From an uncultured virus (IMG/VR IMGVR_UViG_2630968701_000003) (Duplodnaviria; Heunggongvirae; Uroviricota; Caudoviricetes): 64,000 nt of DNA. Positions 1,144 to 34,778 of the stretch are shown here, piece by piece. Both the position numbers and the translations under genes were made by a program. The notes beneath the pieces were generated by a model. It was not told the origin of the DNA. It searched no databases and was given only the letters and a program-made list of their open reading frames with translations. Where the stretch lies: the IMG/VR virus record IMGVR_UViG_2630968701_000003. One strand, written 5' to 3'. Within the stretch, counting starts at the first letter, position 1. Every line of letters begins with the position of its first letter.

Positions 1144-1163
1144 AGAGGTAATTAATAATTTAA

Positions 1164-1264
1164 GTTTTAAGGCTGCGTGACTAGACTGATTCCAAAGGTT
1201 ATGATGACTTGGACATTGAAAAGGTAAGGTTTTAGAATTGTGTAAATAAGAATGATTCCAAAGG
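1164..1264 (+). CRISPR. mini-array 1: two divergent type II-like repeats, one 30-nt spacer
   Basis: R 1164-1198 gttttaaggctgcgtgactagactgattccaaagg; spacer 1199-1228; R 1229-1264 gttttagaattgtgtaaataagaatgattccaaagg. Confidence 0.75.
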
Positions 1265-1345
1265 GTCAAAATGGCTACATAGAGAGTAAAAATAAGAATT
1301 ATATTTATCGAATTGGCTTGTGTAAACAAGAGCTGCTAGGTGCAG
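1265..1345 (+). ncRNA. tracrRNA-like tail fused to last repeat of array 1
   Basis: gtcaaaat..acatag (pairs with ttgtgt using G-U pairs)..gtaaaaataaga..atcg; hairpins cttgt-gtaa-acaag and ctgc..gcag. Confidence 0.8.
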
Positions 1346-1377
1346 TTAATAAGAAATATGAGGAGGAATTATAGAAA

Positions 1378-2665: not shown

Positions 2666-2958
2666 GAATAGTAACCGTACAACAGAGATATGTCTAAAGA
2701 CAAAATAAAATTTCTGAAAAAGAAAGGCGTTTTGTAACCGTGTAACGCGGACATGCCTAAATGTACTGTTGCATTTCCTGAACGTCAATTTGAGTTTTGT
2801 AACTGTGTAATAGGAACATGTCTAAATAAAAAATATCCGTGAAAATTCTTGGAGTTCAGTTTTGTAACTGTGTAATAGGATCATGTCTAAATAAGGAATG
2901 GGAGATGGTCCAGAAGCAACATAGTTTTGTAACTGTGTAATAGGATCATGTCTAAATA
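2666..2958 (+). CRISPR. mini-array 2: 35-nt repeat gttttgtaactgtgtaataggatcatgtctaaata, 5 repeats (2 degenerate), 4 spacers
   Basis: repeats at 2666-2700 (degenerate), 2729-2763, 2794-2828, 2859-2893, 2924-2958; spacers 28, 30, 30, 30 nt. Confidence 0.93.
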
Positions 2959-3040
2959 GTCAAATTATTTTGCACAGTGCGTAAAAATAAGAATGAAATA
3001 ATCGAATAGACTCGTTAAAACGAGAACTGCCGTGTGGCAG
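2959..3040 (+). ncRNA. tracrRNA-like tail fused to last repeat of array 2
   Basis: gtcaaat..tgcacagt (pairs with actgtgta)..gtaaaaataaga..atcg; hairpins ctcgt-taaa-acgag and ctgcc-gtgt-ggcag. Confidence 0.85.
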
Positions 3041-3077
3041 GAAATATTTTCAAATAGCTGAGAAGGGAGAGTGCTTT

Positions 3078-4742: not shown

Positions 4743-4915
4743 AGAAGAAAAAAAATAAAAGTGAAAATATGGCAAAAAATGTTAGGATGACATATCCAAA
4801 ACCCATCAGTTGTATTGTGTCATATATTGTCTTATTGTTCAGTTTAATGTTGATCATGGCAGTTGTGTATGGAATTGATATTCTAGTTGCAACTTTAGCA
4901 AATAAATTTTTATAA
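4733..4915 (+). CDS. secE: preprotein translocase subunit SecE-like
   Basis: 60 aa; VRMTYPK (cf. KVxWP) then one TM ending GIDIL; lies between secY and secA. Confidence 0.65.
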   Translation: MDLKKKKNKSENMAKNVRMTYPKPISCIVSYIVLLFSLMLIMAVVYGIDILVATLANKFL

Positions 4916-4930
4916 ATTGGAGGATTAAAA

Positions 4931-7102
4931 ATGGCAGAAGCAAGACAAGTTAAAAATAGGATTGTTCAGGCTGTATTAAGAGAATGTCAAAAGCTTAAAG
5001 AAAAAGATGATCTTACAGATGAGCTTGAACATGTTAGAGATATAAAGAATAAAAAAGAACGGTTAATCAAAAGTGTTGCATTAGCAAGCGAAGCATCCAG
5101 ACGTACAATCAATATTGAACCTTATCCAGTGCAGATTTTAGCTTCGATTAAGATGTACCAGGGACATGTCATTGAAATGAAAACAGGGGAAGGTAAAACA
5201 TTTGTTTCTCCGATGACGGCCTTTGCAAAAGTATTGGATGGACAGAAGGTACATGTTTTAACGGTAAATGATTATCTTGTAGAACGTGATTACACACTTT
5301 TATTACCGGTATATGAAATGCTGGGATTAAGTGTTGGATATATTACGACAGAGACACCAATAGAAGAAAGAAAAAAAGCATACAAATGTGATGTGTGCTA
5401 CATTACAAATTCTGAGGTTGGTTTTGATTACTTAAAGGATCATTTGGCAATGCATCCAGATTCAGTTGTTTGTAATGGAAAATATGATTTTGCAATTATT
5501 GATGAAGCAGATTCAATTTTAATTGATGAGGCAAGGACACCTCTTATTATTTCAGCAGATACAGAACTTATTAGTGGTTTTTGTATCAGTTGTGCCAAAT
5601 TTGTAAAAACATTAGAACTTTCAAAAGAAACAGAAGAATTAGAAGACACAGTTTATGTCGGAGAGTTCCCTAATGTAGATGGCGATGCTATCCTTAACTT
5701 AAAATATGGACAGGTGTATCTGACTGAAAACGGAGTAAAAAAAGCAGAAGATTATTTTAATGTGGATCATTTAGATAAGTTTATATTACACAGCTTAAAC
5801 AATGCTTTGATTGCCAGATTTATAAAGAAAAAAGGTATTGATTACATCGTCAGAAGAAATGAAATAATTATCGTAGACAATGCTACAGGGAGACTCACAG
5901 AAGGACGCACATGGTCCGATGGATTGCATCAGGCAGTACAAGCGAAAGAAGGAGTAGAAATAGATGCAGCATCAGAAACTGCGGCATCTATTACATATCA
6001 ATGTCTATTCCGTCAATATAAAGATTTTTGCGGCATGACAGGAACGGTCAAAACTGAAAGAAGAGAGTTCAGAAAAATTTACAAAAAGAAGATTTCTGTA
6101 ATTCCTACAAACCGTCCTGTAATTCGTCAAGACCTGCCAGATAGAATCTTTGCTCGAAAAGAAGAAAAATATCAGGCAATTTTGGAGGAAACAAGAAAAG
6201 CTATTGATAAGGGTAGAGCTGTATTAGTTGGTACTGCCAGTGTCTTAACATCAGAAGAATTAAGTGATATTTTTGATGAAAATGACATTGGACATGATTT
6301 GTTAAATGCAAAGCTGCACCGAAGAGAAGCAGAAATTATTGCGGAAGCAGGAAGTAGTGGAAACGTAGTTATTGCAACCAATATGGCTGGAAGAGGTACA
6401 GACATTAAGATTGATGAAAAAACAAGGGCAGCAGGAGGATTACTTGTCATTGGAGCAGAGCATAATGAAGCCAAGCGTATTGACAATCAGTTAAGAGGAC
6501 GTTGCGGAAGACAAGGGGATCCTGGAAGCACACAGTTTTTTGTTTCTTTAGAAGATCGCTTAATTAATCCATATTTATCAAAATCTTATTATGAAGAAAT
6601 GAAAAAAGTAAAAGAAATTGAAAAAAAAGATCCTTTTTCTGGCAACATTATTAGAAGAGTACACAAAAGAATCGGATTACAATACTATTCTAACCGAAAA
6701 GACCTGTTTGATTATGACAAAGTAAATCAGGTGCAAATGCGAGTCATTTACAATGAAAGAGAAAAGATTCTAAATGATGATATGGATCGAGAAACTGTAG
6801 AGCGTATCGCAAAAGAAATGAACATGAAAAAAGAATTTCATGAAGCAATGAAAAGAAAAAAAGACGAAGGAAAAGATACAGTAACCATTCTGCAGGAACA
6901 GAAAAAAGTTTTGTTAAAATCTATTGATAAAGAATGGAGAAAACATCTGCAAGATTTGGAAGCATTAAAGAGAAATGAGTATCTGAAAGCATATGGTAAC
7001 ATGGATCCGGTTACACAGTATCGACTGGATGCTTATCCATTATTTGCAGAAATGGTCGTTAGAGTTAAAAAGGAATTCATGAAAGAAATTTTAAAAGAAT
7101 AA
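4931..7102 (+). CDS. secA: preprotein translocase ATPase SecA (compact, 723 aa)
   Basis: EMKTGEGKT, VHVLTVNDYL, DEADSILIDEARTPLIIS, ATNMAGRGTDI, RIDNQLRGRCGRQGDPG. Confidence 0.97.
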   Translation: MAEARQVKNRIVQAVLRECQKLKEKDDLTDELEHVRDIKNKKERLIKSVALASEASRRTINIEPYPVQILASIKMYQGHVIEMKTGEGKTFVSPMTAFAKVLDGQKVHVLTVNDYLVERDYTLLLPVYEMLGLSVGYITTETPIEERKKAYKCDVCYITNSEVGFDYLKDHLAMHPDSVVCNGKYDFAIIDEADSILIDEARTPLIISADTELISGFCISCAKFVKTLELSKETEELEDTVYVGEFPNVDGDAILNLKYGQVYLTENGVKKAEDYFNVDHLDKFILHSLNNALIARFIKKKGIDYIVRRNEIIIVDNATGRLTEGRTWSDGLHQAVQAKEGVEIDAASETAASITYQCLFRQYKDFCGMTGTVKTERREFRKIYKKKISVIPTNRPVIRQDLPDRIFARKEEKYQAILEETRKAIDKGRAVLVGTASVLTSEELSDIFDENDIGHDLLNAKLHRREAEIIAEAGSSGNVVIATNMAGRGTDIKIDEKTRAAGGLLVIGAEHNEAKRIDNQLRGRCGRQGDPGSTQFFVSLEDRLINPYLSKSYYEEMKKVKEIEKKDPFSGNIIRRVHKRIGLQYYSNRKDLFDYDKVNQVQMRVIYNEREKILNDDMDRETVERIAKEMNMKKEFHEAMKRKKDEGKDTVTILQEQKKVLLKSIDKEWRKHLQDLEALKRNEYLKAYGNMDPVTQYRLDAYPLFAEMVVRVKKEFMKEILKE

Positions 7103-7229: not shown

Positions 7230-7353
7230 GTTTTGAAACTATGTTTAATCAAATGATTTGTTATGTAAAATTAGATAATTCCAATAGTATTTTTAATGTA
7301 ACATGATGACGATGAGAGCTTTAGAACTATGTTGAATCAGATAATTCCAATAG
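7230..7353 (+). CRISPR. mini-array 3: truncated/degenerate repeats, one 30-nt spacer, final repeat gctttagaactatgttgaatcagataattccaatag
   Basis: partial repeat from 7230 (gttttgaaactatgtttaatc); repeat 3' half ending 7287; spacer 7288-7317; repeat 7318-7353. Confidence 0.75.
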
Positions 7354-7505: not shown

Positions 7506-7673
7506 GAATTATATAACGTTAAAATTGGACAATTTCAAATGTTATTCCAATTATATGTACACACAGCATTCGTTTTGTAACCATGTAAAATTGGGTGATT
7601 CCGAATGAGGCGACCAGCGTATTCCTTTTAATGAAGAGTTTTGTAACCATGTAAAATTGGGTGATTCCGAATG
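7506..7673 (+). CRISPR. mini-array 4: repeat gttttgtaaccatgtaaaattgggtgattccgaatg (36 nt), 2 identical plus 1 degenerate repeat
   Basis: degenerate ~7506-7541; spacer 7542-7571; R 7572-7607; spacer 7608-7637; R 7638-7673. Confidence 0.9.
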
Positions 7674-7749
7674 GTCAAAAAGATTACATGGTGTGTTGAA
7701 ATAAGAGTTTATCGAATGTGCCTACTAAAGTAGGAACTGTCAGGGACAG
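7674..7749 (+). ncRNA. tracrRNA-like tail fused to last repeat of array 4
   Basis: ttacatggt is a perfect 9-bp complement of repeat accatgtaa; ttgaaataaga..atcg; hairpins cctac-taaa-gtagg and ctgtc-agg-gacag. Confidence 0.88.
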
Positions 7750-7887
7750 TAAAAATCTGGATCAGCTGATCAAATAACAATCAATTTATTATCATTCTCG
7801 TTTTATGTTTTTTATATTTTCTATTGATTAGCTTTTCCAGACGAATATCAAAATAATAGATTAGATAACAAAGAAAAGGAGATTAAG

Positions 7888-9814: not shown

Positions 9815-10813
9815 ATGAAAGATTTAATTTTAATTATTGTCAGCATATTATGGTGTATTCCTATTTTAATTTCATTTGTAATTTCCGGTTTACGAGAGAA
9901 ATTAGAATCGGATCGAAATTTTTATGGAAAGGAGATTTCTCCTAAAGATATTGAATTAGTAAAAGTCAGATATAAACCAATTGATATGAAAACTTCTGAT
10001 TTTAGTGAATATAACAAAGATGGAGAGCTTCAATATTTCTACAAAAAAGGAAAGAGTCAAGATGTTGTATATGCTATATCAAAACAGGAATACGATAGAT
10101 ATTTTTTAGAATCAACGGTTGAATCAATTACAGCATATTATCCAGAGTTTATTTTTTCTTATCAGTCAACTAATGGATCAATGAAAGCAACCATCGAATC
10201 TTATAAACCTACAATAGAAAGATATTATAATCCGAAAGATATAGAACAATACAAGAAACTAATTGCTAAGAGATGCGAGAAACAGGTGTTTGCTAAAGTG
10301 CCTGGAAGTCATTTTGAATACAAAGATTGTAAAGGTCAAATAGTTGTACATAACATTGATATTGATACAAAAACAATGCATGGAACGATCACAGGAGAGA
10401 GTAATAAAGAATCTGGAAAATGGGATTACCTTTTCTATGATGAAAGTTGGTATCCACAAACGCAAAGAAAAAAGAATAGGTTTTTATCATTTTGTTCCAG
10501 ACTCGATATGCGTAGATCAGACAATATTTTTACATTGTATTTTACAATAGGTCTTATTTTCACTATTCGATTGATTACAGAAATGATCGTTAATCAAAAT
10601 TCTATGTTAACGATGGACATGAAATTTATTTTACTTTATATGATAGCAGCTTGCCTTTGTTTGATTATTGTAATTTATTTATCAGTGACGATGAAATATA
10701 TTATTGGAAAAATATTTAGTGGGGATGTATTAATTTCAAGTGTTTCTATGCTATTTACAATATATTTTATTGCAAAAGCATTTATGAGATTTGCATCAAT
10801 GATTATGAGTTAA
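9815..10813 (+). CDS. membrane protein, 'DRNFY' paralog family member 1
   Basis: N-terminal TM, REKLESDRNFYGK, GESNKESGKWD, three C-terminal TMs. Confidence 0.8.
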   Translation: MKDLILIIVSILWCIPILISFVISGLREKLESDRNFYGKEISPKDIELVKVRYKPIDMKTSDFSEYNKDGELQYFYKKGKSQDVVYAISKQEYDRYFLESTVESITAYYPEFIFSYQSTNGSMKATIESYKPTIERYYNPKDIEQYKKLIAKRCEKQVFAKVPGSHFEYKDCKGQIVVHNIDIDTKTMHGTITGESNKESGKWDYLFYDESWYPQTQRKKNRFLSFCSRLDMRRSDNIFTLYFTIGLIFTIRLITEMIVNQNSMLTMDMKFILLYMIAACLCLIIVIYLSVTMKYIIGKIFSGDVLISSVSMLFTIYFIAKAFMRFASMIMS

Positions 10814-10872
10814 ATTGCAAGAAGAGTTGAAAGAATCATTGTTAATATAACGGTACAATAAATACATCTATT

Positions 10873-11039
10873 GTTTTAAAAGTCTGTAAAAAATATCGTT
10901 GTAAATGATTGTTAGATGACGATGATCGTTTGATTGAGTTTTAGAAGTCTGTAAAACAGAATCATTGTCGATGATTAGCCATTTGTTGCATATTACGAAC
11001 ATAGTTTTAGAAGTCTATAAAACAGAATCATTGTCGATG
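10873..11039 (+). CRISPR. mini-array 5: repeat gttttagaagtctgtaaaacagaatcattgtcgatg, 3 repeats, two 30-nt spacers
   Basis: R 10873-10907 (degenerate), 10938-10973, 11004-11039; further remnant agaatcattgttaat near 10832-10846. Confidence 0.92.
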
Positions 11040-11116
11040 GTCAAATAATAAACAGACTGTGTAAAAATAAGAATTTTATCGATACTGCTCGCAAAAGCGA
11101 GAGCTGCTAGGTGCAG
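11040..11116 (+). ncRNA. tracrRNA-like tail fused to last repeat of array 5
   Basis: gtcaaat..acagact (pairs with agtctgt)..gtgtaaaaataaga..atcg; hairpins ctcgc-aaaa-gcgag and ctgc..gcag. Confidence 0.88.
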
Positions 11117-11139
11117 CAGATTATGAAAGGAGAAATTCG

Positions 11140-11922
11140 ATGGTTAAGTATTATATTATAATTGGAATTATTTATACAATCCCCTATATAGTCACTATTG
11201 TAATAAGCGGTTTACGAAAGAAGCTAGAAACAGACAGAAATTTTTATGGAAAAACTATAGATATTCAAAAGATAGAACTTACGAATGTAAGTTATAAAAA
11301 GTTTGAAATTGCAAGAAATAATATTAAAAAGTATACAGAAATGGGAGAAATTAAATATGTATATGATCGTAGCTACGATTTTGAAGATGAACGTTTGTTA
11401 TTATCTGAAAAAGAATATCAAAAATGTTTCCCAGACAAATTTGTAAAGACTACGGTTGCGTATTATATAATTTTTGAGTTTTCGTATGAGACTGATCATG
11501 GAAAAATAAAAGCAAAAATTACTCTTACAAAACCGGTAATAGAAAAAACATATAACGATAAAGATGTTGAAGAAATAAAAAAGCTTATTTATGAAGAATG
11601 CAGCAATAAAATATTTGCTAATGTAGGTACAGAAAGCAAATATAAAGATTACAAAGGACAAGAAGTCATACATTCATTACCAATAAGAACATCAACACTA
11701 GAGGGAGAGATTATAGGTGAAAGTAACAAAAGACCAGGGCAGTATGATTGGATGTTTTCAGACAGCAGTTGGTATCCAGAAGAAGCCAAAAAGAGAAATA
11801 GGTTCTTATCTTTTTGTACTTATCTCAACCCAAATAAAAGAAATTCAATATTTTTACCCTATTTTACGATTGGAATATTGGGAATAATAATCAATTGGAT
11901 GTTCAATCTAATTATTAAGTAA
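11140..11922 (+). CDS. membrane protein, 'DRNFY' family member 2
   Basis: N-terminal TM, RKKLETDRNFYGK, GESNKRPGQYD, C-terminal TM. Confidence 0.8.
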   Translation: MVKYYIIIGIIYTIPYIVTIVISGLRKKLETDRNFYGKTIDIQKIELTNVSYKKFEIARNNIKKYTEMGEIKYVYDRSYDFEDERLLLSEKEYQKCFPDKFVKTTVAYYIIFEFSYETDHGKIKAKITLTKPVIEKTYNDKDVEEIKKLIYEECSNKIFANVGTESKYKDYKGQEVIHSLPIRTSTLEGEIIGESNKRPGQYDWMFSDSSWYPEEAKKRNRFLSFCTYLNPNKRNSIFLPYFTIGILGIIINWMFNLIIK

Positions 11923-11953
11923 TTTTAAAATATATGAAAGGAGATAAGAAGAT

Positions 11954-12568
11954 ATGCAATTTACAACACCAGATATGAGGGAAATAACCATTTCAGATAA
12001 ATCAGAAGCATGTGATTTTATAAAGGATTCATGTAAAGAATGTAATAGGAAATATGAATGTACTGGGGAAAACGCAGCATTTTGTAATCATATGAAAAAT
12101 ATCCTTGTAGCAAAGTACGGAGCAGCAGAAGGGTGTTTAAAAGAATCCAGAATTAGGCATAGTATGGGAGTTGCAAACTTCTTATTTGCCTATGCGAAAT
12201 CTCATGACTGGAGTAAGGAAGAGACAGAAGATCTTTATTTGACTGGCTTATTACATGATATAGGATATATTGACAATCCCAAAGGTACGGATCACGGAAG
12301 ATTAGGTGCAGAAATCTTGAAGAGAAATGGACTTAATGCAGAAATTTGCGAATTAATTAGTTGTCATGGAAGATTTATAGAGAACCCAAGTAGAAAGCAA
12401 GCACTTTTATGGCTTGCAGATCTATGCGTGAATCGTGATGGAGACTATATCGGATATCAAAAAAGATATGAGAGTATCAAGGAAAGATATAAGAATGATC
12501 CAGAACGTTTATTTCAAGTTTATCGGATTTTGGAATACTTGCAAATACATTTTTCGGAATACAGATAA
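11954..12568 (+). CDS. HD-domain (HDIG) phosphohydrolase
   Basis: HSMGVA..GLLHDIG..HG..H..LWLAD; Cys-rich N-terminus. Confidence 0.85.
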   Translation: MQFTTPDMREITISDKSEACDFIKDSCKECNRKYECTGENAAFCNHMKNILVAKYGAAEGCLKESRIRHSMGVANFLFAYAKSHDWSKEETEDLYLTGLLHDIGYIDNPKGTDHGRLGAEILKRNGLNAEICELISCHGRFIENPSRKQALLWLADLCVNRDGDYIGYQKRYESIKERYKNDPERLFQVYRILEYLQIHFSEYR

Positions 12569-12730
12569 ATGGTTTGTGTTTATTATGGATTCCAAAGGAT
12601 AAACTGCCGTACTACGTATAGATAAGAGGTTTTAGAGCTGTGTTTAATATGTGGATCCCAAAGGGATTCTCTACAAATACAATGTCGCCTCTACGTTTTA
12701 GAGCTGTGTTTAATATGTGGATCCCAAAGG
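12565..12730 (+). CRISPR. mini-array 6: repeat gttttagagctgtgtttaatatgtggatcccaaagg, 2 identical plus 1 degenerate repeat
   Basis: degenerate repeat ending 12598; spacer 12599-12628; R 12629-12664; spacer 12665-12694; R 12695-12730; 5' GTTTTAGAGCTGTGTT resembles streptococcal II-A repeats. Confidence 0.92.
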
Positions 12731-12807
12731 ACCAAAATATTTTGGCAGTGTGTAAAAATAAGAAAACATCGAAAAGAATCGCTATAGCGAAATCTGCTAT
12801 GTGGCAG
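12731..12807 (+). ncRNA. tracrRNA-like tail fused to last repeat of array 6
   Basis: accaaaat..gcagt (weak G-U pairing with gctgt)..gtgtaaaaataaga-aaaca-tcg; hairpins tcgc-tata-gcga and ctgcta-tg-tggcag. Confidence 0.82.
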
Positions 12808-13006
12808 AAAATTGATAAAGATATGGTTTTACATCAATTTGATATTTCTGAAATTTTTGTTTTTGGATAAATTGTAGTCCAAAACAAAATATCTTCTAAA
12901 TAAGACATAATGTTTAGAAAAGGAGATAAAATATCACGAAAAAGAGATATAAAGTAAAAATAAGGAAAAATAGAAAGTGGAATACATTTTATAGGTTACA
13001 AATTAA

Positions 13007-13061
13007 GTAAAAATAAGATTTTGCCGAATATATTCATATAGATGAATCTGTTATGAAACAG
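13007..13061 (+). ncRNA. orphan degenerate tracrRNA-like tail (no intact repeat upstream)
   Basis: gtaaaaataaga-ttttg-ccgaa; hairpins ttcat-atag-atgaa and ctgtt..aacag. Confidence 0.55.
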
Positions 13062-13090
13062 AAAAAACAAAGGAATAGGAGGACAATAAG

Positions 13091-15421
13091 ATGAGCAGAA
13101 GATTAAAAAAAATTGGCACCGCAATTTTTGATATTGTAGGTTTCATAAATTTTAGATTACAAGAAACAAAAGGAAATTGTTGGATTGATCAGTTATATGA
13201 CAAAGATTATTGGGGAAAAAATAATCAGTCAAAAGAAATAAACAACGAAATCAAAGAATATTTGAATAAAGGATATTCTATGGGATGTGCGGGTCGATAC
13301 ACACATGAACCGTTAGTAGACGTAAATGGAGAAATTGTTAAAATTCAGAATTATTTAGACCAGATGAAATTGCCATGGAATCTTTTATATCAAGACGATA
13401 TTTTAGCAGTCCTTCATTATGGCTCATTCTGTTTTGTCACTCCAAAAGACTATATTACTTCAACATTATTTAAAAACTTAGATGATCAGTCCTTAATATC
13501 TTTAAAAGCAGGCAAGGGAGGAACAGCTCAAACAACGCTGCCAGCAATCTTTCAAAATGAAAATTTATGTAGAAACGATCTTACATCAAATATTGATACA
13601 AAAAAACAAGAGATTCAAAATAAACAGGATGAACTTAAAAATCTGCAGAAAGAAAAAGCAGCAGAGATTGAACGAATGAAACAGGAAATTGAAGCAAAAT
13701 ATGCAGATACCATCTCATTAATAAATAAGAAGAAAGAAGAATTAGAATCAAAAAAAGCAGAACTGGAAGGACAGTTATTTATATATGATACAGAGTTATA
13801 TGCCATTCGTTGCTATTGGGGAGAAACTGTAACTTTTGTTCCGCTAAGAAAAGGAAAACATGCAAATATTGAAGATCCAGTTGTCCTATATCAAAAAATC
13901 CGATTTTTAAATGAAGAATTGGGAAGATATGCAGCAATTTATGATTTTGACGGATCAAAATATAGTAAACATACATTTGAGGAATTATTAAAAATTCGAG
14001 ATGATTTTATGAATATGTTTGCACCTGGTCCGAAATCCATCTCCTTAGTAAAAATCAGCAAGGATGGAACAATTCGCTGCCAGTCCGAAATCCGAAATAA
14101 CATGTTATCAGAATATGAATTACTTCACGGAAACACAATAGCAATTTTGATCAGGGATGGAGAGAATCTTTATATTGGATGGACAGACGATGATAAAGTT
14201 CAGGTTAAAGATGAAAATATGTTTTTGAAGCCAGAGACAAAAGAGATTGCAAGTGAAGATGAAGAAAACATTCGCAATTCTCAAAAAGAAGAGATCGCCG
14301 GAAGATACTTTATTTTTGCGATATTACAGGGAATAGTTGATCAAGGGAAAATCTTAAAGCTTCCAAAGATAGGTTCTATTATGAAGTCAAATCCTTATGT
14401 AATCTATAGTATGGCAGATGGATGGTTAGAAGATGATCGGTTCGGAACACTAGAAGATATCCTAAAAAGAACAAATCATGAAGTTATGAAAAAGGGAGAT
14501 ACCATTTTAACTTTAATGAGGATTACAAGAGATGATAACGGCTATGGATATGGACGGAGAGGTGGTGTCTGGAACAATAATCGTGGACGTGGAGAAGCTA
14601 ATCGTACTCATGATGTATCATTGAAAGATTTCAAATTTTATAAGATAAATAAAGTGGATAAAACCGAATATTATGATGTATTTATGAGAAAATATCCTCT
14701 TGATATCGAGTTTGAAACCATTGAAACGCCAATTAGACCGAATATTACAAACATAGGGCATGTTATCAAAAAGTCTACCTGTTTATGGGATGAAATGGAA
14801 TTAGAAAAAAAAGAAATTCGAGTATTAAATAATCGACTTACTGGATTCACATTAGATGATGAGCATGATCCAACAATAAAACAGGTAATGGAGAGAGAAA
14901 ATGCTGCATCAGATACAGAAGCATTAAAAAAATTTCTACCCAAAAACTATAGATTTGAGACAAAAGATGAGACATATTATGATTCCCGAAGTGATTCTAT
15001 GAAAGGATATCATCAATCTTTGGATCATGTCGCAAATAGTGCTACAGAATATCAGTATTTTATTTCTGAACGTAAAAAATATACGGTAAATTCTACTGCC
15101 AATATGGAAATTAGGGAGGGAGAATACCTTGATATGACATATTTAAACAGTGTCTTAATCCGATACGTGATTCGAACCAAAAAGGTTGGAAATGTATATA
15201 TTGGAGGTACGAAGATTCAGTTTGCAGATATTATTCCTTATTTGAATAAAGCACTTGAATTTTTAGAAGAAAGAGAAAAGACAGAAGCAGCATTATTAAG
15301 ACTGCATATGGACTTATATGAAAACTGGCAGGTAGATGTATCAAGATGGAGATTAGAACATCATTATCATGAGTTGACTGAAACAAGAGCGAAGAAATTT
15401 GCCAAAGAATTTGCAAGATAA
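13091..15421 (+). CDS. large hypothetical protein with coiled-coil segment
   Basis: AGGAGG RBS; heptad-rich aa ~160-230; no recognisable catalytic motif. Confidence 0.8.
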   Translation: MSRRLKKIGTAIFDIVGFINFRLQETKGNCWIDQLYDKDYWGKNNQSKEINNEIKEYLNKGYSMGCAGRYTHEPLVDVNGEIVKIQNYLDQMKLPWNLLYQDDILAVLHYGSFCFVTPKDYITSTLFKNLDDQSLISLKAGKGGTAQTTLPAIFQNENLCRNDLTSNIDTKKQEIQNKQDELKNLQKEKAAEIERMKQEIEAKYADTISLINKKKEELESKKAELEGQLFIYDTELYAIRCYWGETVTFVPLRKGKHANIEDPVVLYQKIRFLNEELGRYAAIYDFDGSKYSKHTFEELLKIRDDFMNMFAPGPKSISLVKISKDGTIRCQSEIRNNMLSEYELLHGNTIAILIRDGENLYIGWTDDDKVQVKDENMFLKPETKEIASEDEENIRNSQKEEIAGRYFIFAILQGIVDQGKILKLPKIGSIMKSNPYVIYSMADGWLEDDRFGTLEDILKRTNHEVMKKGDTILTLMRITRDDNGYGYGRRGGVWNNNRGRGEANRTHDVSLKDFKFYKINKVDKTEYYDVFMRKYPLDIEFETIETPIRPNITNIGHVIKKSTCLWDEMELEKKEIRVLNNRLTGFTLDDEHDPTIKQVMERENAASDTEALKKFLPKNYRFETKDETYYDSRSDSMKGYHQSLDHVANSATEYQYFISERKKYTVNSTANMEIREGEYLDMTYLNSVLIRYVIRTKKVGNVYIGGTKIQFADIIPYLNKALEFLEEREKTEAALLRLHMDLYENWQVDVSRWRLEHHYHELTETRAKKFAKEFAR

Positions 15422-15501
15422 GTTAATTCGGATATCTTTTATAAACGTTAATGTTTATGACAAAAAATGTATCAAAATATTACAATAACTTCAATAATTT
15501 T

Positions 15502-15573
15502 ATCAAAATAGGAAAAGTAGAAGTAAAAATATATTGAAACCGCTCGTCGTTACGAGATTTGCAAGATCGCAAA
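15502..15573 (+). ncRNA. second orphan, highly degenerate tracrRNA-like tail
   Basis: atcaaaata..gtaaaaata..; hairpins ctcgt-cgtt-acgag (same stem as array 2) and tttgc..gcaaa. Confidence 0.4.
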
Positions 15574-15615
15574 AAGCAAACAATATAAAATATCATAAGA
15601 AAAGAGGAATGTTTG

Positions 15616-16785
15616 ATGCATATTGTAGAATCAGGTAAAAGATATAGAATTTTTAATAATGCGATTACCACGTACGATCAACTACCACCAAAAACTTATC
15701 GGGTGGATTATGATCCAGAAACAAGAATTTTTTCTTTACTAGAAGCACACGATTTTGAGATTCCAGAAACAAAAATTTATGGTCAGCATTTAGATAAAGT
15801 CAAGAAAGTGTTGAATTCCATGGATAAGATGAATCGAAATCTTGGAGTAATTCTAAGTGGAGATAAAGGAATTGGAAAGTCACTTTTTTCTAAGTGTTTA
15901 GGATTGAAAGCAAGAAAAAAAGGGATACCTGTTATATTGGTTAATGAATATCATGAGGGGATTGCAAACTTTCTTGAAGAAATTGAGCAAACAGTTATGA
16001 TACTGTTTGATGAATACGATAAAACTTTTGATGAAAAGAAACATAATTGTCAAGCGGAGATGTTATCTTTATTTGATGGAGTAAGTGCAGGAAAGAAACT
16101 GTTTGTGATTACATGTAATGAGATTCAAAGTTTAAGTCAATATTTGATAAATCGTCCTGGAAGATTTCATTATCATTTTAGATTTTTATATCCAACAGCA
16201 GATGAAATTCGTGATTATATGGAAGATAAGTTAGACAAGCAATATTATGATGAAATTGAAAATGTGATTGCTTTTAGTGTACGAATGAATCTTAACTATG
16301 ACTGTTTACGGTCCATTGCTTTCGAACTAAACAATGGATTAAAATTTCAGGAAGCTATTAATGATCTTAATATTATCAGAATAAGTCAGTATAAGAACAT
16401 AAAAATTATTGTAGAATTTGAAAATCAGGCAACATTAAGTGGAAAAATAAAAGAATGGCAGCTGTATGACAATACAATTACTGATATGAGTATATATCTT
16501 CCAGATAATATTCGTCCATTATCTTATGTTGGAGAATATATTGGCGAATTTCCAATGAATTTTTCAAATAACTATATTGATAAGGATAAAAGAATGTTAA
16601 TGTTTCATGTTACAAATCCAGAACCAGAGTATGATATTGCTTATACGCATGAAAGTCAAGATGAAGAGAAAACAGATGAAGGCAAGAAAATTACGGATAT
16701 TTTAGACAAATTATATATTGGACAGAAAATCAAACGTATTTATGCGGTACCGAGTGATCAAAAGGATAAATTTAGGTTTTTCTAA
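15616..16785 (+). CDS. AAA+ family ATPase
   Basis: Walker A GDKGIGKS, Walker B ILFDEYDK, NRPGRF arginine-finger region. Confidence 0.88.
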   Translation: MHIVESGKRYRIFNNAITTYDQLPPKTYRVDYDPETRIFSLLEAHDFEIPETKIYGQHLDKVKKVLNSMDKMNRNLGVILSGDKGIGKSLFSKCLGLKARKKGIPVILVNEYHEGIANFLEEIEQTVMILFDEYDKTFDEKKHNCQAEMLSLFDGVSAGKKLFVITCNEIQSLSQYLINRPGRFHYHFRFLYPTADEIRDYMEDKLDKQYYDEIENVIAFSVRMNLNYDCLRSIAFELNNGLKFQEAINDLNIIRISQYKNIKIIVEFENQATLSGKIKEWQLYDNTITDMSIYLPDNIRPLSYVGEYIGEFPMNFSNNYIDKDKRMLMFHVTNPEPEYDIAYTHESQDEEKTDEGKKITDILDKLYIGQKIKRIYAVPSDQKDKFRFF

Positions 16786-16822
16786 GAATATTATTGATTG
16801 TAAGTATAATTACTGAAAAATG

Positions 16823-16990
16823 GTCTATACGATTAAAGAAACGGAATTATTGTCAATGAATGAATTCGTAAGTTTGTCTAATGTTGTAGTTTTAGAAGAC
16901 TGTAAAACAGAATCATTGTCAATGAAAGGCGGCAAACCACAGCTCTCTACTGCCGTTTTAGAAGACTGTAAAACAGAATCATCGTCAATG
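16823..16990 (+). CRISPR. mini-array 7: repeat gttttagaagactgtaaaacagaatcattgtcaatg, 2 near-identical plus 1 degenerate repeat
   Basis: degenerate 16823-16858; spacer 16859-16888; R 16889-16924; spacer 16925-16954; R 16955-16990. Confidence 0.92.
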
Positions 16991-17063
16991 GTCAAATAAG
17001 CAGTCTGTGTAAAAATAAGAAAGCATCGAAATAATTCGCAAAGGCGAAATCTGCTGGTAGCAG
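16991..17063 (+). ncRNA. tracrRNA-like tail fused to last repeat of array 7
   Basis: gtcaaat..gcagtct (pairs with agactgt)..gtgtaaaaataaga-aagca-tcg; hairpins ttcgc-aaag-gcgaa and ctgct-ggt-agcag. Confidence 0.88.
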
Positions 17064-17102
17064 AAAATTAATTAATCCTAATTAAAAATATAAGGAACGG
17101 AG

Positions 17103-17676: not shown

Positions 17677-18684
17677 GTGAATGAATGCGAACTTGTAAAA
17701 AAGATCCTGAACCACATGAATGCAGAAGATTATAAAATCCTTATTAATAAAGTGTGGTTTCGTGGCTTTTGGGTTCCTGGAATCGCTAATCAGCGAAGTG
17801 ATAAGAAATGGCGGCCAAAAGTCGAATTTATTAATAACGATGTTGTTTTAAATAGAAAAATCCGAAAAGGTGGAAAACATAATTATGAACTATTAATTGA
17901 AGCAATGATAAAAATGGCAGAGGATCGAAATGATGAGACATATTTGCTATACAACGTAGTGAGATGGATAACAGATCCAGATTCCCATGAAGAAATTGAG
18001 GAATACTTCAATCAATTAGAAAATAAACCAAAAGACGATACAAAAAATGATTCAGAAGAAATAAAAGATACTTCTGAAAAAGATGATGTAAATGTTCAGG
18101 ATAATTTATTAAAAAAAGAAAATGAAAAGTTAAAAGCGGAAATAGATAATTGGAAAAATCGTGGAAAGAAATATAAAGAAAACATTCAGAATTTAAAAAT
18201 TAAATGCAGTAACCTGGAACAAGAAAATAACAGAGTTAAGAAAGAAAATGGAAGATTGATCAGAGAAAATAAAAAAACAAAACAGGGAAAAGATACTGTA
18301 GTAAAAGAATATAATGACAGAATCATTGCATTAAGTGTTGAAAACAGCAAATTAAAAGAGAAAATAAGAGGAAAATACAAGCCTAAGAAGAACATTGTTT
18401 TATCAAAAACATCAGGAGTTTCAGATCCGAAAGTATTATGTGTTACAAAAAATCCGGCAGATGTTTTGATCAAAGGATATAATATCTATTTTCTAACGGA
18501 TCTTGAAGAGTTAAATAAAAAGATTTATACAGAAACAGTGTTTGATCAAATCTGGTACATCAGAAGTGGGCTTACACATGCAGATTTAATCAAGGTTGCA
18601 GAAAAGTATGCTAACCAAAAAATATTACAGGCTAGGGACTGGAAAGCATTACAAAAGAAATTACAAGGAGGGGACAGGCTATGA
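17677..18684 (+). CDS. coiled-coil protein upstream of McrB (CnuA-like)
   Basis: long heptad region aa ~140-235; stop overlaps next start (ATGA); small alpha/beta C-terminal domain. Confidence 0.7.
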   Translation: MNECELVKKILNHMNAEDYKILINKVWFRGFWVPGIANQRSDKKWRPKVEFINNDVVLNRKIRKGGKHNYELLIEAMIKMAEDRNDETYLLYNVVRWITDPDSHEEIEEYFNQLENKPKDDTKNDSEEIKDTSEKDDVNVQDNLLKKENEKLKAEIDNWKNRGKKYKENIQNLKIKCSNLEQENNRVKKENGRLIRENKKTKQGKDTVVKEYNDRIIALSVENSKLKEKIRGKYKPKKNIVLSKTSGVSDPKVLCVTKNPADVLIKGYNIYFLTDLEELNKKIYTETVFDQIWYIRSGLTHADLIKVAEKYANQKILQARDWKALQKKLQGGDRL

Positions 18685-20666
18685 ATCAGGAAGATATGCA
18701 GATTATAGGGACACTGGCACTTGAAAAAGATACAAAAAGAAAAGGTGTGTTTATCAATACAAAGTCAGCAATACAGTATGTTGTTAAGTCAATGATGAGC
18801 GACTATAAATCAGATAAATTATTTACTGGATATATGAATTCATTTGAGAATGATCAGAAATTTGATGATGAATATCGTTCAGATGAAGAAAGGGTAGAAA
18901 AGTTCTGGGATCATATCTATGACAAATTGTTTATCTATAATTTCAAAGCAAATGATGGCGAATTTGAAAGAATGACAAAAGTTCATCTTGTTAATAAGCC
19001 AGTAAAATTTAATGAAGATGAATATTTTAAAGGAGTTCCGGTGTTTTCTGCTGCTACAGATGAGATCGTAAGAGAATGGGAACTGGAAAGTCAGTGGAGC
19101 TTATACAGAAACTATAATACATTAGATGAATTTTGTGATTGTATCAAAGCAAAACAGCCATTAGGAAGTACCTATGGATACGATGCAACAGAGAGTCAGC
19201 CATCATTTGTAATCTGGAAAAATCAGAATCAGAAATTGTATGTGATCGGGAAGATTGCAAATTGCCGATATAATTCGCAGCGAGGATTGATCTTAGAAAA
19301 AGAAGGACAGGAACTATTGAAAATTGATATCAGTGATCAGGCAGAAAAGATTGTCTATGATGTGGATGCTAATCCAACATTAGCTTTTGTTCCGGAAACG
19401 ATTTATAAACAGATTGAAGATCAAATTTTGAAAGCAGAAGTTGAAAGAACAAAAAAATTAGAGGCAAAGAAAAAAGAACCAGTAACAAAACAGAATCAGG
19501 AAAAGGCAGAGAGTTTTACAGAGACAGTTAATGATGCTCAGGAAGAATTAAAAGAGGTTAATACAAAAGAATACAGTGATGAGTTACTAATTCAGATGAT
19601 GGATTATCACAGTCAGAAGAGAAACTTGTTCTATAACATGAAAGATTTTGTCAATGTACATACAGCAATCAAGTGCAGCAATCTTGTAATTCTATCCGGA
19701 CTTAGTGGTACTGGGAAATCTGCTTTAGTTGAAATTTATGCAAGGGCATTAGGAATCAGAAATAACCTGGAAGATGATCGATTACTGTTTGTTCCAGTGC
19801 GACCATCTTGGAATGATGATGCCGATCTGCTTGGATATGTTGATCTGGTTCATAATGTTTATCGTCCATCAGATACCGGATTCGTTGATTTTCTGGTCAA
19901 TGCACAAAAGGAAGAAAATAAAGGAAAATTATTTATTGTCTGCTTTGATGAAATGAATCTTGCAAGAGTTGAACATTATTTCAGCCAGTTCTTATCATTA
20001 TTAGAACGTCCAGAAAATCAGAGAGAATTACAATTATATGATAGTCAGTATGCCGGACAGTTATATAATTCAGCAACATATCCAAGCAAGATTATCATCG
20101 GGGATAATATCCGATTTATTGGAACAGTTAACATCGATGAATCTACATATCATTTTTCTGATAAGGTACTGGATCGTGCTAATGTAATTGAATTAGATGT
20201 TCTGGATTATTCGAAAGAATGGACAAAGAAGCAATATGCAAGTCTGATCACACCAACATGGTCTAAAGATGAATATGATGCGTTAATCAATAAAGATGTT
20301 GATATTAAAGCAGATAAGGTGCAAGAATTATTGTGGGAAATTCACCAGCTTTTACAGTCAGCCAGTGCTAAATATGGAGTCGGACCACGAATTGTAAAAG
20401 CTATTAAAATGTACATCAATAATCTTCCTAAGACAGAGATTAATGGATTTAATAAAGGTGTAGCATTAGATTATCAGATTGCACAGAGAATATTAACAAA
20501 GGTTCGCGGACCAGAAATTCAGATTGGGCGACTGCTGAATGGAAAAAGTAATACAGGATTTAATCAAATCTTTGATAAATATAGCGAGCTATCAGATTTT
20601 AAGAAATGTAGAAAAGTAATCAGCGAAAAACAAAAGGAGTTAGGGGCATATGGATATTGTATCTAG
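18681..20666 (+). CDS. McrB-family AAA+ GTPase (NxD variant)
   Basis: GLSGTGKS, VPVRPSWND..DLLGY, FDEMNLARVEHYFSQFLS, GTVNIDEST, SDKVLDRA. Confidence 0.92.
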   Translation: MNQEDMQIIGTLALEKDTKRKGVFINTKSAIQYVVKSMMSDYKSDKLFTGYMNSFENDQKFDDEYRSDEERVEKFWDHIYDKLFIYNFKANDGEFERMTKVHLVNKPVKFNEDEYFKGVPVFSAATDEIVREWELESQWSLYRNYNTLDEFCDCIKAKQPLGSTYGYDATESQPSFVIWKNQNQKLYVIGKIANCRYNSQRGLILEKEGQELLKIDISDQAEKIVYDVDANPTLAFVPETIYKQIEDQILKAEVERTKKLEAKKKEPVTKQNQEKAESFTETVNDAQEELKEVNTKEYSDELLIQMMDYHSQKRNLFYNMKDFVNVHTAIKCSNLVILSGLSGTGKSALVEIYARALGIRNNLEDDRLLFVPVRPSWNDDADLLGYVDLVHNVYRPSDTGFVDFLVNAQKEENKGKLFIVCFDEMNLARVEHYFSQFLSLLERPENQRELQLYDSQYAGQLYNSATYPSKIIIGDNIRFIGTVNIDESTYHFSDKVLDRANVIELDVLDYSKEWTKKQYASLITPTWSKDEYDALINKDVDIKADKVQELLWEIHQLLQSASAKYGVGPRIVKAIKMYINNLPKTEINGFNKGVALDYQIAQRILTKVRGPEIQIGRLLNGKSNTGFNQIFDKYSELSDFKKCRKVISEKQKELGAYGYCI

Positions 20667-22440
20667 GACTCCATTTACCTTAAAACTTATCCAACGCTTT
20701 CCTGGTTATAAGGAAAGTGTTGGTTCTAAGTTCAGTATGAATGAACGTGATATATGGGAAAATGGATTTTATACTTTGGCAGCAGAAGAAAATGAGACAT
20801 TAGAAGTATTATTTGATTCAGCAGATAAAAACGCAAGGTTATATCTGGAAGCATTGGATGTCATGCCATATGATGATAAGAACCTGTTTGAAGATGAAGA
20901 GGGACGGTTATATCGTACCGTATCACCAGAAAGCTTTTTATTATGTTCCAGCGACAGCACAACAGATACATTAAGAGTTGACTCTTTTAAAATGTCAATT
21001 TACTGCAATGAAAAATGGTATTATGGGGTGCTAAACATCCTGCCCAAAGCAATGTCTAAAAAAGAATGGAAAATGATGAAAGATGATCTGGAAAAAGAAG
21101 TTCGTGGACTAGCTCAGGACATTATTCAGAAAAATATTGGAATTGGTAATAAAAACATAAAAATTCCTCCACGAATTCTATATGATTTCATGATTCTGAA
21201 AAAGTATTCAAAACGTGTGATCATGGCTTTAATGAATATTGCTGAAAATCCAAAATGCGAGATTGTTACGGAATATGAAAATGTATCTTTACAGAAGAAC
21301 AATGAACGTAATTTTGATGCAGCAACCATGAGAAGATACGCAACAAGATCTGGATGCGATGCCAGATGGAAGATTCCAGTCAAAAGGACATGTTATGACA
21401 TTCAGGAAAATCGCTTATTAAAAAATATGCTCCAGGAATACGATGATAAACTGGTAGAATTTATTGCTATTCTTGATAATGCGGAATCTTTTAATATGGA
21501 AGAAGAAAGTAACAAAGAAATGCTTTTAGAATTTCGAGAAACAGCAGAAAAATTAAAAAAGGTAACTGCAATCTTAAAAGCTCAGGAATGGTTTGGAAAA
21601 GTTGGGAAACTATCCGGACCTTATATTCCACATTCATTTATTCTTGATACACGCTACAATACCATTTATCAGATGCATATGGAATTAAAGCAGAATGAAG
21701 TACAGATTCATTTGAATCCAGAATTTGATTATACATGGAAGAGAAGCAGCTATCTGTATGAAATGTGGTGTTTTTTCAAAGTATGTCATTTTTGCTTTGA
21801 AAAATTAGATCTGGAATATTCTGATTGGAATTTTGATCTAAAAGGTGAAGTATTTTTTCCGTTTTTAAAAGAAGGTACTATGGTCCGCTTTTCAAACCCG
21901 GTAATCAGGGTTGATGTGGTTTATGATCAATGTTTGCCATTAGAGAAAGAAGCTACGGATATCAATCACCCATTATACATTGCAAAGCAGCATGGGGATC
22001 ACAGGAATCATAACCGCCCGGATATTGTACTTAATGTATATGACAAAGAGCGAAATGTTTATCTTGGCAGTATTATTCTGGAATGTAAATACAGAAAACT
22101 TCATTCATTTTGGAGTGAGGATTCCACACGATCAAGTAGAGGACAGTTAGAAGCTTATTATAATAATGCAAGATCTTCTCATTTATTAGCAGGATTAGGA
22201 GAGTCATTTAACATCAGGCCGATTAGTAAAGTATTGGCATTATCTCCGGATGATCGGGCAGATGGACTAGAACAGGAAGACTTTGGAATTGAAATTAAGA
22301 CCTTTAAGCCAACAGAAGATGGACGAGAAGAACATATCAATCAATGGATTTTTGAAGAAATAGTTAATTTGGAGAAACGATATGATAAATTTTGGAGAAT
22401 CATATGGCCAGATGAACAGGCGGAGGTGCATTTCGTATGA
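20650..22440 (+). CDS. McrC-like DUF2357 + PD-(D/E)XK nuclease
   Basis: YDIQENRLLK, YLYEMWCF, RPDIVL..ILECKYR; overlaps mcrB-like gene. Confidence 0.88.
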   Translation: MDIVSRTPFTLKLIQRFPGYKESVGSKFSMNERDIWENGFYTLAAEENETLEVLFDSADKNARLYLEALDVMPYDDKNLFEDEEGRLYRTVSPESFLLCSSDSTTDTLRVDSFKMSIYCNEKWYYGVLNILPKAMSKKEWKMMKDDLEKEVRGLAQDIIQKNIGIGNKNIKIPPRILYDFMILKKYSKRVIMALMNIAENPKCEIVTEYENVSLQKNNERNFDAATMRRYATRSGCDARWKIPVKRTCYDIQENRLLKNMLQEYDDKLVEFIAILDNAESFNMEEESNKEMLLEFRETAEKLKKVTAILKAQEWFGKVGKLSGPYIPHSFILDTRYNTIYQMHMELKQNEVQIHLNPEFDYTWKRSSYLYEMWCFFKVCHFCFEKLDLEYSDWNFDLKGEVFFPFLKEGTMVRFSNPVIRVDVVYDQCLPLEKEATDINHPLYIAKQHGDHRNHNRPDIVLNVYDKERNVYLGSIILECKYRKLHSFWSEDSTRSSRGQLEAYYNNARSSHLLAGLGESFNIRPISKVLALSPDDRADGLEQEDFGIEIKTFKPTEDGREEHINQWIFEEIVNLEKRYDKFWRIIWPDEQAEVHFV

Positions 22441-22778
22441 AAGAAAAAGAATTTGAAAGACGATTAGATAAAAAGATTCAAGGTCATGCGAAAATCATGT
22501 CGGATGAAAAACGGAAAAAGATACATATAGATTATGCCAAGAACCATAGTCAAAATGAACTATTTGCTGTGTGTATCGAGGAAATGAGCGAATTAACGAA
22601 ACATTTAACAAAGATCATGCGAGGAAAAGAGTCAATGAGAAATAATGCAGGATGCATTGAGGAAATGGCAGATGTTCAAATTTGTTTGAATACACTGCAA
22701 TTATATTTGGACCTTTCTGAATCTGATTTCAATTATGCAATCGATGTTAAGCTTGAGAGATATGAAGGTAGGAGGTGA
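22437..22778 (+). CDS. MazG-like nucleotide pyrophosphohydrolase
   Basis: IEEMSELTK...IEEMADVQIC EExxE/EExxD motifs. Confidence 0.8.
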   Translation: MKEKEFERRLDKKIQGHAKIMSDEKRKKIHIDYAKNHSQNELFAVCIEEMSELTKHLTKIMRGKESMRNNAGCIEEMADVQICLNTLQLYLDLSESDFNYAIDVKLERYEGRR

Positions 22779-22782
22779 TCTG

Positions 22783-23697: not shown

Positions 23698-23728
23698 TTT
23701 GAGAATAAAGTAAAAGATAGGAGAAAAA

Positions 23729-32703: not shown

Positions 32704-32725
32704 ATCATAGAAAAAGAGGATAAAA

Positions 32726-32875
32726 ATGAAAAGAAAAGTTGAACTATTATTAATGGCAATGGCACTTATTGTGTTGGCCATTATTTTTTTACAAGAAACA
32801 ACAACAAAATGTGTATTACTTGTGGTACTGATCGTGCTGCAAGTGATCACTGAGAAAGAAATTAAAGAAAATTAA
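32726..32875 (+). CDS. small hydrophobic protein (49 aa)
   Basis: AGAGGA RBS; two short hydrophobic segments; fills the dnaX-dnaN gap. Confidence 0.5.
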   Translation: MKRKVELLLMAMALIVLAIIFLQETTTKCVLLVVLIVLQVITEKEIKEN

Positions 32876-32889
32876 AGGAGAATTTTATT

Positions 32890-34765: not shown

Positions 34766-34778
34766 AGGAGAAAATCAT

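What the first reader, a model, noticed from the sequence alone, without database searches (positions are those of the whole stretch)
10938..17063. Compensatory base changes show each anti-repeat co-evolves with its own repeat
Seen: arrays 5 and 7 have nearly the same repeat except aGTCtgt versus aGACtgt, and their tails switch reciprocally (acaGACt versus gcaGTCt). The other pairs are accatgtaa/ttacatggt (array 4), actatgt/acatagt (3) and actgtgta/tgcacagt (2). The first 3' hairpin has a different stem in every cassette (cttgt/acaag, ctcgt/acgag, tttgc/gcaaa, cctac/gtagg, ctcgc/gcgag, tcgc/gcga, ttcgc/gcgaa), always with a 4-nt loop. Inference: selection maintains RNA structure in cis, so these are functional RNAs rather than decaying debris.
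Basis: seen in the sequence. Interest (0 to 1): 0.8.

Follow-up and report, generated by a model that had tools for sequence, protein, structure and literature searches.

The report
Natural single-guide CRISPR cassettes on ICE
A large mobile DNA element in a human-gut bacterium carries tiny CRISPR arrays that end in their own built-in tracrRNA, so they look like self-updating natural guide RNAs aimed at small hitch-hiking elements and phages, and some close relatives pair them with a naturally non-cutting Cas9.

Summary
The pairing and covariation are real, but narrower than claimed: two-sided changes sit mainly at repeat positions 10-12 and in hairpin 1. The 5/7 switch is one base pair, and the own tail is the best partner for 5 of 7 repeats. 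The units are type II-A mini-arrays whose last repeat runs in cis into a tracrRNA-like scaffold (Rfam RAGATH-30). They lie on an integrated conjugative element (ICE) of Anaerostipes. Spacers differ between near-identical elements, and strain-specific ones sit next to the tail. They match a small integrative mobilizable element and temperate phages: 12 sites, 9 with a 3' NRAA motif, three hit by window spacers. No cas gene was found in the window or its nearest full-length relative. 2 of 9 cassette-bearing records carry a Cas9 lacking its catalytic residues, directly before cassettes. Best reading: adaptive natural single-guide RNAs used against hitch-hikers and phages with a Cas9 supplied in trans. 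Expression and activity are untested. Closest known: vsgRNAs, type IV-A3, viral mini-arrays. None combines these features in the texts I saw.

The parts
1163..1347 (+). Cassette 1: 5'-decayed repeat 1163-1198, spacer 1199-1228, last repeat 1229-1264, linker/anti-repeat 1265-1285, scaffold tail from 1286
2666..3043 (+). Cassette 2: five 35-nt repeats (2666 decayed, 2729, 2794, 2859, 2924), four spacers, anti-repeat 2970-2978, tail from 2981
2894..2923 (+). Tail-proximal spacer of cassette 2: 30/30 match to the early region of a temperate phage, 3' flank TAAA
7252..7429 (+). Cassette 3: decayed repeat 7252, spacer 7288-7317, last repeat 7318-7353, tail from 7373
7506..7752 (+). Cassette 4: decayed repeat 7506, repeats 7572 and 7638, tail from 7695
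7608..7637 (+). Tail-proximal spacer of cassette 4: 30/30 match to a small gene of a Viral_Rep/FtsK/integrase mobilizable element in G409, 3' flank TGAA
10872..11119 (+). Cassette 5: decayed repeat 10872-10907, spacer 10908-10937, repeat 10938-10973, spacer 10974-11003, last repeat 11004-11039, anti-repeat 11050-11058, hairpins from 11088 and 11104
   Evidence: no exact target in IMG/VR for the 10974 spacer
12563..12810 (+). Cassette 6: decayed repeat 12563, repeats 12629 and 12695, anti-repeat 12741-12749, hairpins from 12778 and 12794; last spacer differs from the one in G001
   Evidence: no exact target in IMG/VR
12986..13070 (+). Orphan scaffold tail with no repeat upstream; its anti-repeat segment could pair 8 of 9 with the cassette-5 repeat at 10938
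15488..15581 (+). Second, more decayed orphan tail
   Evidence: 40.8 bits; same site scores 37.9 bits in G001
16823..17066 (+). Cassette 7: decayed repeat 16823, repeats 16889 and 16955, anti-repeat 16998-17006, hairpins from 17035 and 17051
16925..16954 (+). Tail-proximal spacer of cassette 7: 29/30 match to the intergenic stretch between two divergent genes of the same mobilizable element; 3' flank GACA (not NRAA)

Best explanation
Each cassette is a type II-A-derived mini-array whose last repeat is joined in cis to a tracrRNA scaffold, so last spacer + repeat + tail can fold into a natural single-guide RNA; upstream spacers would need a tail in trans. The ICE uses these guides, loaded on a II-A Cas9 that it need not encode, to block small integrative mobilizable elements and temperate phages. 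In family members that carry the nuclease-dead Cas9 the block would be binding without cutting (repression or roadblock). In members like this window's nearest relative, which lack it, the protein must come from a co-resident sister element or from the host's patchy II-A locus. New spacers are added next to the tail, presumably by host Cas1-Cas2, so the newest spacer becomes the fused guide. Shown here: anatomy, covariation, spacer turnover and order, PAM-flanked targets, dead Cas9 beside cassettes in relatives. Inferred: transcription, Cas9 loading, which Cas9, the source and route of acquisition, and that the mobilizable element hijacks this ICE.
For: 36-nt repeats and 30-nt spacers (97 of 126 spacers are 30 nt). 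A model built only from the cassettes gives 13 weak hits (E 0.03-1.7) in 31 host cas9 loci, 10 of them at the tracrRNA position (positions). Covariation. 15 of 146 spacer variants match with <=2 mismatches at 12 sites, against 0 for reversed spacers; 9 of 12 sites have NRAA on the 3' side. The 22 best of 149 spacer variants translate to peptides matching the mobilizable element's proteins above the best shuffled score. Strain-shared spacers lie tail-distal in 42 versus 2 arrays (17 ties), and 8 versus 1 after skipping the fixed first spacer (14 ties); first repeats decay at their 5' end. G429 and G432 encode a 1312-aa Cas9 directly upstream of three cassettes. It has T/K/Y/A at four catalytic positions that are D/E/H/H in 33 of 33 host Cas9s. 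All 21 clade representatives lack the RuvC residues and 16 of 21 have lost the HNH domain. Its cluster has 2780 members, one named A. hadrus. G429 shares VirB4 at 99% with G001. 1 of 4 ICE-carrying isolates holds a host II-A locus.
Against: No cas9 in G001, G004, G428, G430, G431, G433, G434 (7 of 9 records; several are fragments), no Cas1 in 5 of 5, and 3 of 4 carrier isolates have an empty host II-A site, so many carriers may have no effector at all. The PAM of neither candidate Cas9 was determined; 0 of 470 host spacers matched the phage loci held. Spacers hit both strands of target genes (13 sense, 9 antisense), with no bias of the kind CRISPRi would favour. 3 of 12 sites lack NRAA, including window cassette 7. 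The window spacers of cassettes 5 and 6 had no exact target in IMG/VR. Cassette 5's lowest-energy fold does not form the repeat:anti-repeat stem. No promoter excess (9 sites versus 14.7 expected) and no poly-T terminator after the tails. The host tracrRNA pairs with 4 of 7 window repeats as well as or better than their own tails, so processing to a dual guide is possible. Tail-side growth with the PAM end facing the tail is the opposite of normal II-A geometry and is unexplained.
Confidence: 0.7

Rival explanations
1. The units are mainly RNA anti-CRISPRs: they soak up host Cas9, as vsgRNAs do, to protect the ICE, and the spacers are incidental.
For: 7-11 copies per element and two orphan tails; vsgRNAs inhibit mostly by sequestration; ICE tails pair poorly with the host repeat (7 of 7 weaker than with their own).
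Against: Full-length spacers that turn over and match foreign elements with a consistent 3' motif; no spacer match to the 50 host cas loci scanned beyond 5-7 mismatches (one search covered L424-L473; the closest host locus L617 was not in that scan); a dedicated Cas9 in relatives.
Confidence: 0.12
2. In this branch the cassettes are survivors of a dCas9 module that was lost; they work only in the minority of cells with a compatible Cas9, and the covariation is inherited from that earlier state.
For: 7 of 9 records lack cas9; 3 of 4 carriers lack the host locus; uncompensated mismatches and orphan tails exist.
Against: Spacers differ between the window and G001 despite 89-99.8% backbone identity, and two window spacers match targets 30/30, so acquisition is recent in this branch.
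Confidence: 0.12
3. The cis fusion is only a co-transcription device: RNase III cuts the repeat:anti-repeat hairpin to give an ordinary crRNA plus tracrRNA for a cutting host Cas9, i.e. a mini-array with its own tracrRNA rather than a single guide. Compatible with the same targets.
For: The full 36-nt repeat and an apical stem are kept (79.7% of cells paired); upstream repeats pair with the tail as well as the last one in 39 of 49 cases; spacers show no strand bias.
Against: The duplex beyond position 17 is short and broken, and the linker is 14-24 nt by the parse; the family's own Cas9 cannot cut by sequence.
Confidence: 0.25

Closest known systems
Viral sgRNAs (vsgRNAs), Feussner et al., bioRxiv 10.64898/2026.06.01.729453 (read parts 1-4 and 6 of 9 plus a term search; supplements not seen)
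   Same: Mobile-element RNA with repeat and tracr scaffold in one transcript, away from host cas9.
   Different: vsgRNAs are about 90 nt, with a short guide that mostly matches tracr-L and the cas9 promoter, and sit with Acrs on phages. Here there are whole repeats, multi-spacer arrays, 30-nt changing spacers against foreign elements, an ICE, and a dead Cas9 in relatives. The main text has no 'RAGATH', 'Anaerostipes', 'Lachnospira' or 'leader'. Its Table S2 (170 elements, IMG/VR searched) could list some of these units.
Type IV-A3 CRISPR-Cas (Benz et al., bioRxiv 10.1101/2023.06.23.546257; abstract seen)
   Same: On a conjugative element, no Cas1/2, spacers gained in trans, silences competing elements without cutting. 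Best functional analogue.
   Different: Multi-subunit class 1 effector with DinG; here a single II-A-derived Cas9 and fused guides.
Viral CRISPR mini-arrays (PMC11656645, 10.1101/2023.03.03.530964; passages seen)
   Same: Cas-less short arrays that borrow an effector for inter-element conflict.
   Different: Described there as having repeats identical to the host's and targeting related viruses. Here repeats are 13-25/36 identical to the closest host repeat, vary among cassettes, and carry their own tracr.
tracr-L of type II-A (passages)
   Same: Natural cis fusion of repeat-like sequence and tracrRNA.
   Different: Sits in the cas locus with a fixed 11-13-nt guide for autorepression.
Rfam RF03055 RAGATH-30
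   Same: The 3' scaffold is this family (8 hits over the gathering score).
   Different: Rfam lists it as an sRNA and covers only the 59-nt tail. A full-text search for the name found 0 papers; the original motif paper was not seen.
Campylobacter ICE with Cas9 against plasmids (PMC8743540) and DNase-free Cas12c (10.1101/2021.12.06.471469); search listings only
   Same: ICE-borne Cas9 in element conflict; interference without cutting.
   Different: By title and abstract start, a different host and effector; not read further.

Membership tests
Type II-A CRISPR-Cas | 36-nt repeat, 30-nt spacer, tracrRNA with lower stem, bulge, upper stem, nexus, hairpins | tested here: met
Type II-A CRISPR-Cas | cas9, cas1, cas2, csn2 in the locus | tested here: not met
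   No cas Pfam in 53 window ORFs; no Cas9 in G001; no Cas1 in 5 of 5 records
Type II-A CRISPR-Cas | 3' PAM at targets | tested here: met
   NRAA at 9 of 12 sites
Type II-A CRISPR-Cas | New spacers at the 5' leader end | tested here: not met
   Order points to growth at the 3' tail end; inferred from order, not observed
Type II-A CRISPR-Cas | Catalytically intact Cas9 | tested here: not met
   Family-borne Cas9 lacks RuvC residues in 21 of 21 representatives; the host's Cas9 is intact by sequence
vsgRNA | Repeat and tracr in one folded RNA, far from host cas9 | tested here: met
   (6 of 7 fold so); predicted, not probed
vsgRNA | Compact, about 90 nt, short fixed guide to the cas9 promoter | tested here: not met
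   Units are 118-125 nt without spacer; 30-nt variable spacers match foreign DNA
vsgRNA | On a (pro)phage with Acr/Aca genes | tested here: inconclusive
   Carrier is an ICE with VirB4/VirD4 and no capsid or terminase Pfam hit; no Acr library was searched
vsgRNA | Sequesters Cas9 | not testable with these tools
   needs a bench assay
Viral/MGE mini-array | Cas-less short array on a mobile element | tested here: met
Viral/MGE mini-array | Repeat identical to the host's | tested here: not met
   13-25 of 36 to the L617 repeat; best to any of 28 host arrays 18-28 of 36
Type IV-A3 | Csf/DinG multi-subunit effector | tested here: not met
   no such Pfam hits in 53 window and 113 G001 ORFs
Type IV-A3 | Acquisition in trans and repression without cutting | not testable with these tools
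   suggested; not assayed
RAGATH-30 (RF03055) | Score above gathering threshold 59.5 | tested here: met
   8 window hits, 60.6-71.5 bits

The most novel reading that the evidence does not exclude
A natural, adaptive CRISPRi system: an abundant gut ICE family encodes a fully nuclease-dead (often HNH-deleted) II-A Cas9 and dispersed array-tracr fusions that gain spacers at the tail end through borrowed host integrase, so the newest memory is at once a single-guide RNA that silences hitch-hiking mobilizable elements and phages.
Probability: 0.45. Interest if true: 0.93.

Novelty: new variant of a known kind. Interest (0 to 1): 0.84.

Why it matters
It gives a function to an unexplained Rfam motif. 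It would extend natural single-guide RNAs from fixed anti-CRISPR decoys to reprogrammed, adaptive guides, and add a natural dead Cas9 (including a version about 150 residues shorter without HNH) as a class 2 counterpart of type IV-A silencing. It makes testable how conjugative elements fight the small elements that exploit them in a common gut bacterium, and how II-A spacer orientation and leader choice can be reversed. The covarying scaffolds and the compact dead Cas9 are candidate CRISPRi parts.

Tried and rejected
No RNA holder was listed for window 10800-13100; this says nothing about expression. The window's own genome is not held. Tail-only patterns were too loose: one search was mostly chance, and spent the genome scan on chance hits (0 RAGATH-30 in 15 loci checked). 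No plasmid or phage record matched the region or cassette-2 spacers beyond chance. A Lachnospiraceae-family sample gave no cassette-type repeat (0 of 401) and only weak spacer hits. A hotspot motif search gave 3 unrelated contigs plus one array copy. Self-targeting was rejected: no close spacer match in window or G001 outside arrays, and spacer peptides versus G001 ORFs equal the shuffled null (one search was noise). 'Phage' was rejected although the relatives are in IMG/VR: G001 has VirB4, VirD4, pilin, sortase, ArdA, no capsid/terminase hit, and 12.7 kb of host chromosome at one end. IscB/TnpB on G001 were rejected as the effector because no cassette lies beside them and the scaffold is II-A-like. 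Ectopic integration guided by leader-like spacer ends was not supported (p=0.44 and 0.16). The inverted-leader idea is left open: the 7 nt after the last repeat match the reverse complement of the II-A leader anchor (mean 4.9/7 over 12 variants versus 2.0 for spacers; anchor exact in 17 of 28 host arrays; PMC5382924 passages). But the same bases also pair with repeat positions 25-28, and it predicts the wrong spacer orientation. Model R1 found nothing in 20 genus genomes. Earlier scan findings: nothing relevant.
Full report
Observation. The window holds seven cassettes of the form decayed repeat - spacer(s) - intact repeat - 14-24-nt linker - scaffold. Only 5-7 lie in the stated range. All seven tails and one orphan tail at 13007 are Rfam RAGATH-30. 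The quoted stems exist. The 5/7 switch is a single pair at repeat position 11, and the repeat fused to tail 5 carries an uncompensated G14A.

Covariation. I kept 32 at under 93% similarity, leaving out G001 and truncated tails, and aligned them. With my structure 92.4% of 791 cells pair (shuffles 85.5%, 0 of 500 reach it; slid partners 34-48%). 5 of 9 upper-stem and 5 of 5 hairpin-1 pairs show two-sided changes; the count of such pairs, 11, is reached by 24 of 500 shuffles. RNAalifold gives 16 pairs, 9 with two-sided change, with the lower stem one column over. Counting events on a tree from the other columns gives 7 compensatory events at positions 10-12 (p=0.002) and 13 in hairpin 1; a first version on 33 units gave p=0.014 and 0.069. 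The cognate assignment ranks 6 of 5040 in the window, with the own tail best for 5 of 7. Six of seven units fold into the expected stem; cassette 5 does not. The structure is under selection, but cassette-specific co-evolution is partial.

Carrier. The nearest record G001 (222 kb) covers the window at 89-99.8% identity in blocks. It has VirB4, VirD4, pilin, sortase and ArdA and no capsid or terminase hit among 113 ORFs scanned outside the window (113 of 121 listed). One end is 12.7 kb of host chromosome, 98.5% identical to G414. It is an integrated conjugative element. A DnaN cluster member is named Anaerostipes hadrus. A spacer in another CRISPR array of G414 (30-nt repeat, type I-B-like by recall) matches a cassette tail with 1 mismatch, tying such elements to this host.

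The tail is a tracrRNA. Host II-A loci of the same family have the same order of anti-repeat, bulge, lower stem, nexus and two hairpins. A model built only from cassettes gives 13 weak hits in 31 host loci, 10 at the tracrRNA position. RAGATH-30 itself weakly hits the stretch before cas9 in L429, a member of the clade nearest the element's own Cas9.

The arrays are live and grow at the tail. Spacers differ between window and G001 at cassettes 1, 2, 4 and 6. Among array pairs sharing a spacer, 78 share only the tail-distal end and 5 only the tail-proximal end (4 both, 4 neither; 13 versus 4 without the first spacer); pairs are not independent. The per-array test gives 42:2 and 8:1. First repeats carry 11.3 mismatches versus 1.3 for last repeats and have lost their 5' part (35% versus 88% identity). 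This is the geometry that a structural preprint ascribes to II-C, not II-A (passages). How it arises is open (see Tried and rejected).

Targets. One window spacer found 30/30 matches in four phage records of a temperate-type phage with anti-repressor, terminase and tail genes. Two more matched a region of about 6 kb in G409 with Viral_Rep, FtsK and integrase genes, which I read as an integrative mobilizable element. In all, 15 of 146 spacer variants match at 12 sites with at most 2 mismatches, 9 sites with 3' NRAA by my tally, and 0 reversed controls match. At protein level the top 22 of 149 variants exceed every shuffled score against that element's proteins, on both strands (13 and 9). No self-targeting was found. 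The last spacers of window cassettes 5 and 6 remain without target.

Effector. Neither window nor G001 has cas9, and 5 of 5 records lack Cas1. Of 9 cassette-bearing records, G429 and G432 encode a 1312-aa Cas9 followed directly by three cassettes; G429 has VirB4 99% identical to G001's. At the positions of SpCas9 D10, E762, H840 and H983 (numbering recalled) it has T, K, Y and A, where 33 of 33 host proteins keep the catalytic residues. All 21 clade representatives lack the RuvC residues, 16 have deleted HNH, and one keeps the HNH histidine; the next 20 relatives are intact. The main cluster has 2780 members. The host alternative exists but is patchy: 1 of 20 genus genomes and 1 of 4 carrier isolates, with a diverged PAM-domain segment; the other three have an empty site. 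Which protein serves this window's cassettes is not settled, and no PAM was assigned to either.

Comparison and novelty. It works most like type IV-A3 (abstract) and is built most like vsgRNAs, but fails defining features of both and of canonical II-A and mini-arrays. Ten literature searches showed no description of array-tracr fusions with changing spacers or of this dead Cas9 in their listings. The library lacks most subscription papers, and the vsgRNA supplement was not seen. Verdict: observation partly confirmed, interpretation partly supported, and the underlying system is a new variant with a strong novel case.

Noticed in passing
G414:C1 near 1221042 (L616/L620): A host CRISPR spacer matches the cassette scaffold itself (1 mismatch to the tails in L308/L362), so host immunity has targeted these cassettes.
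   Followed up: partly
L635:8842-12777 and P0241-P0256: Abundant natural nuclease-dead Cas9 clade; many variants lack about 150-160 residues spanning HNH with the frame intact.
   Followed up: partly
window 16925-16954 and L285: The same target site was captured twice, 2 nt apart, in two cassette types; only the L285 version has an NRAA flank.
   Followed up: partly
window 2764-2793 and 2829-2858; L144, L284, L307, L391: Several overlapping spacers from different strains seem to tile one small gene; by eye they resemble the 109-aa ORF of the mobilizable element, but they were not among the top protein matches.
   Followed up: partly
L617 and run X15; P0076, P0196, P0200, P0225: Host Cas9 PAM-interacting regions are swapped among otherwise near-identical proteins.
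   Followed up: partly
window 3501-7102, 31273-39606: The ICE carries its own SecY, SecA, DnaX, DnaN, UvrD and topoisomerase genes.
   Followed up: no
window 17677-22440: McrBC-like pair (AAA_5 GTPase plus DUF2357) with an upstream coiled-coil protein; weak PADLOC hit PDC-M26A.
   Followed up: no
G001 reverse-complement position 12717 / L618 near 15995: The ICE is inserted inside a small host gene before a heavy-metal ATPase-like ORF (CsoR-like by recall); no attachment repeat was found at the other end of G001.
   Followed up: partly
window 9815-10813, 11140-11922, 22735-24709: A family of paralogous membrane proteins without Pfam match; two of them flank cassette 5.
   Followed up: no
L635:6858-7751: ORF upstream of the dead cas9 has a Pfam ATLF (metallopeptidase-like) domain match.
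   Followed up: no
decayed first repeats, positions 15-20: Several keep a TAAAAT-like hexamer that could be a -10 box for the cassette; not tested.
   Followed up: no
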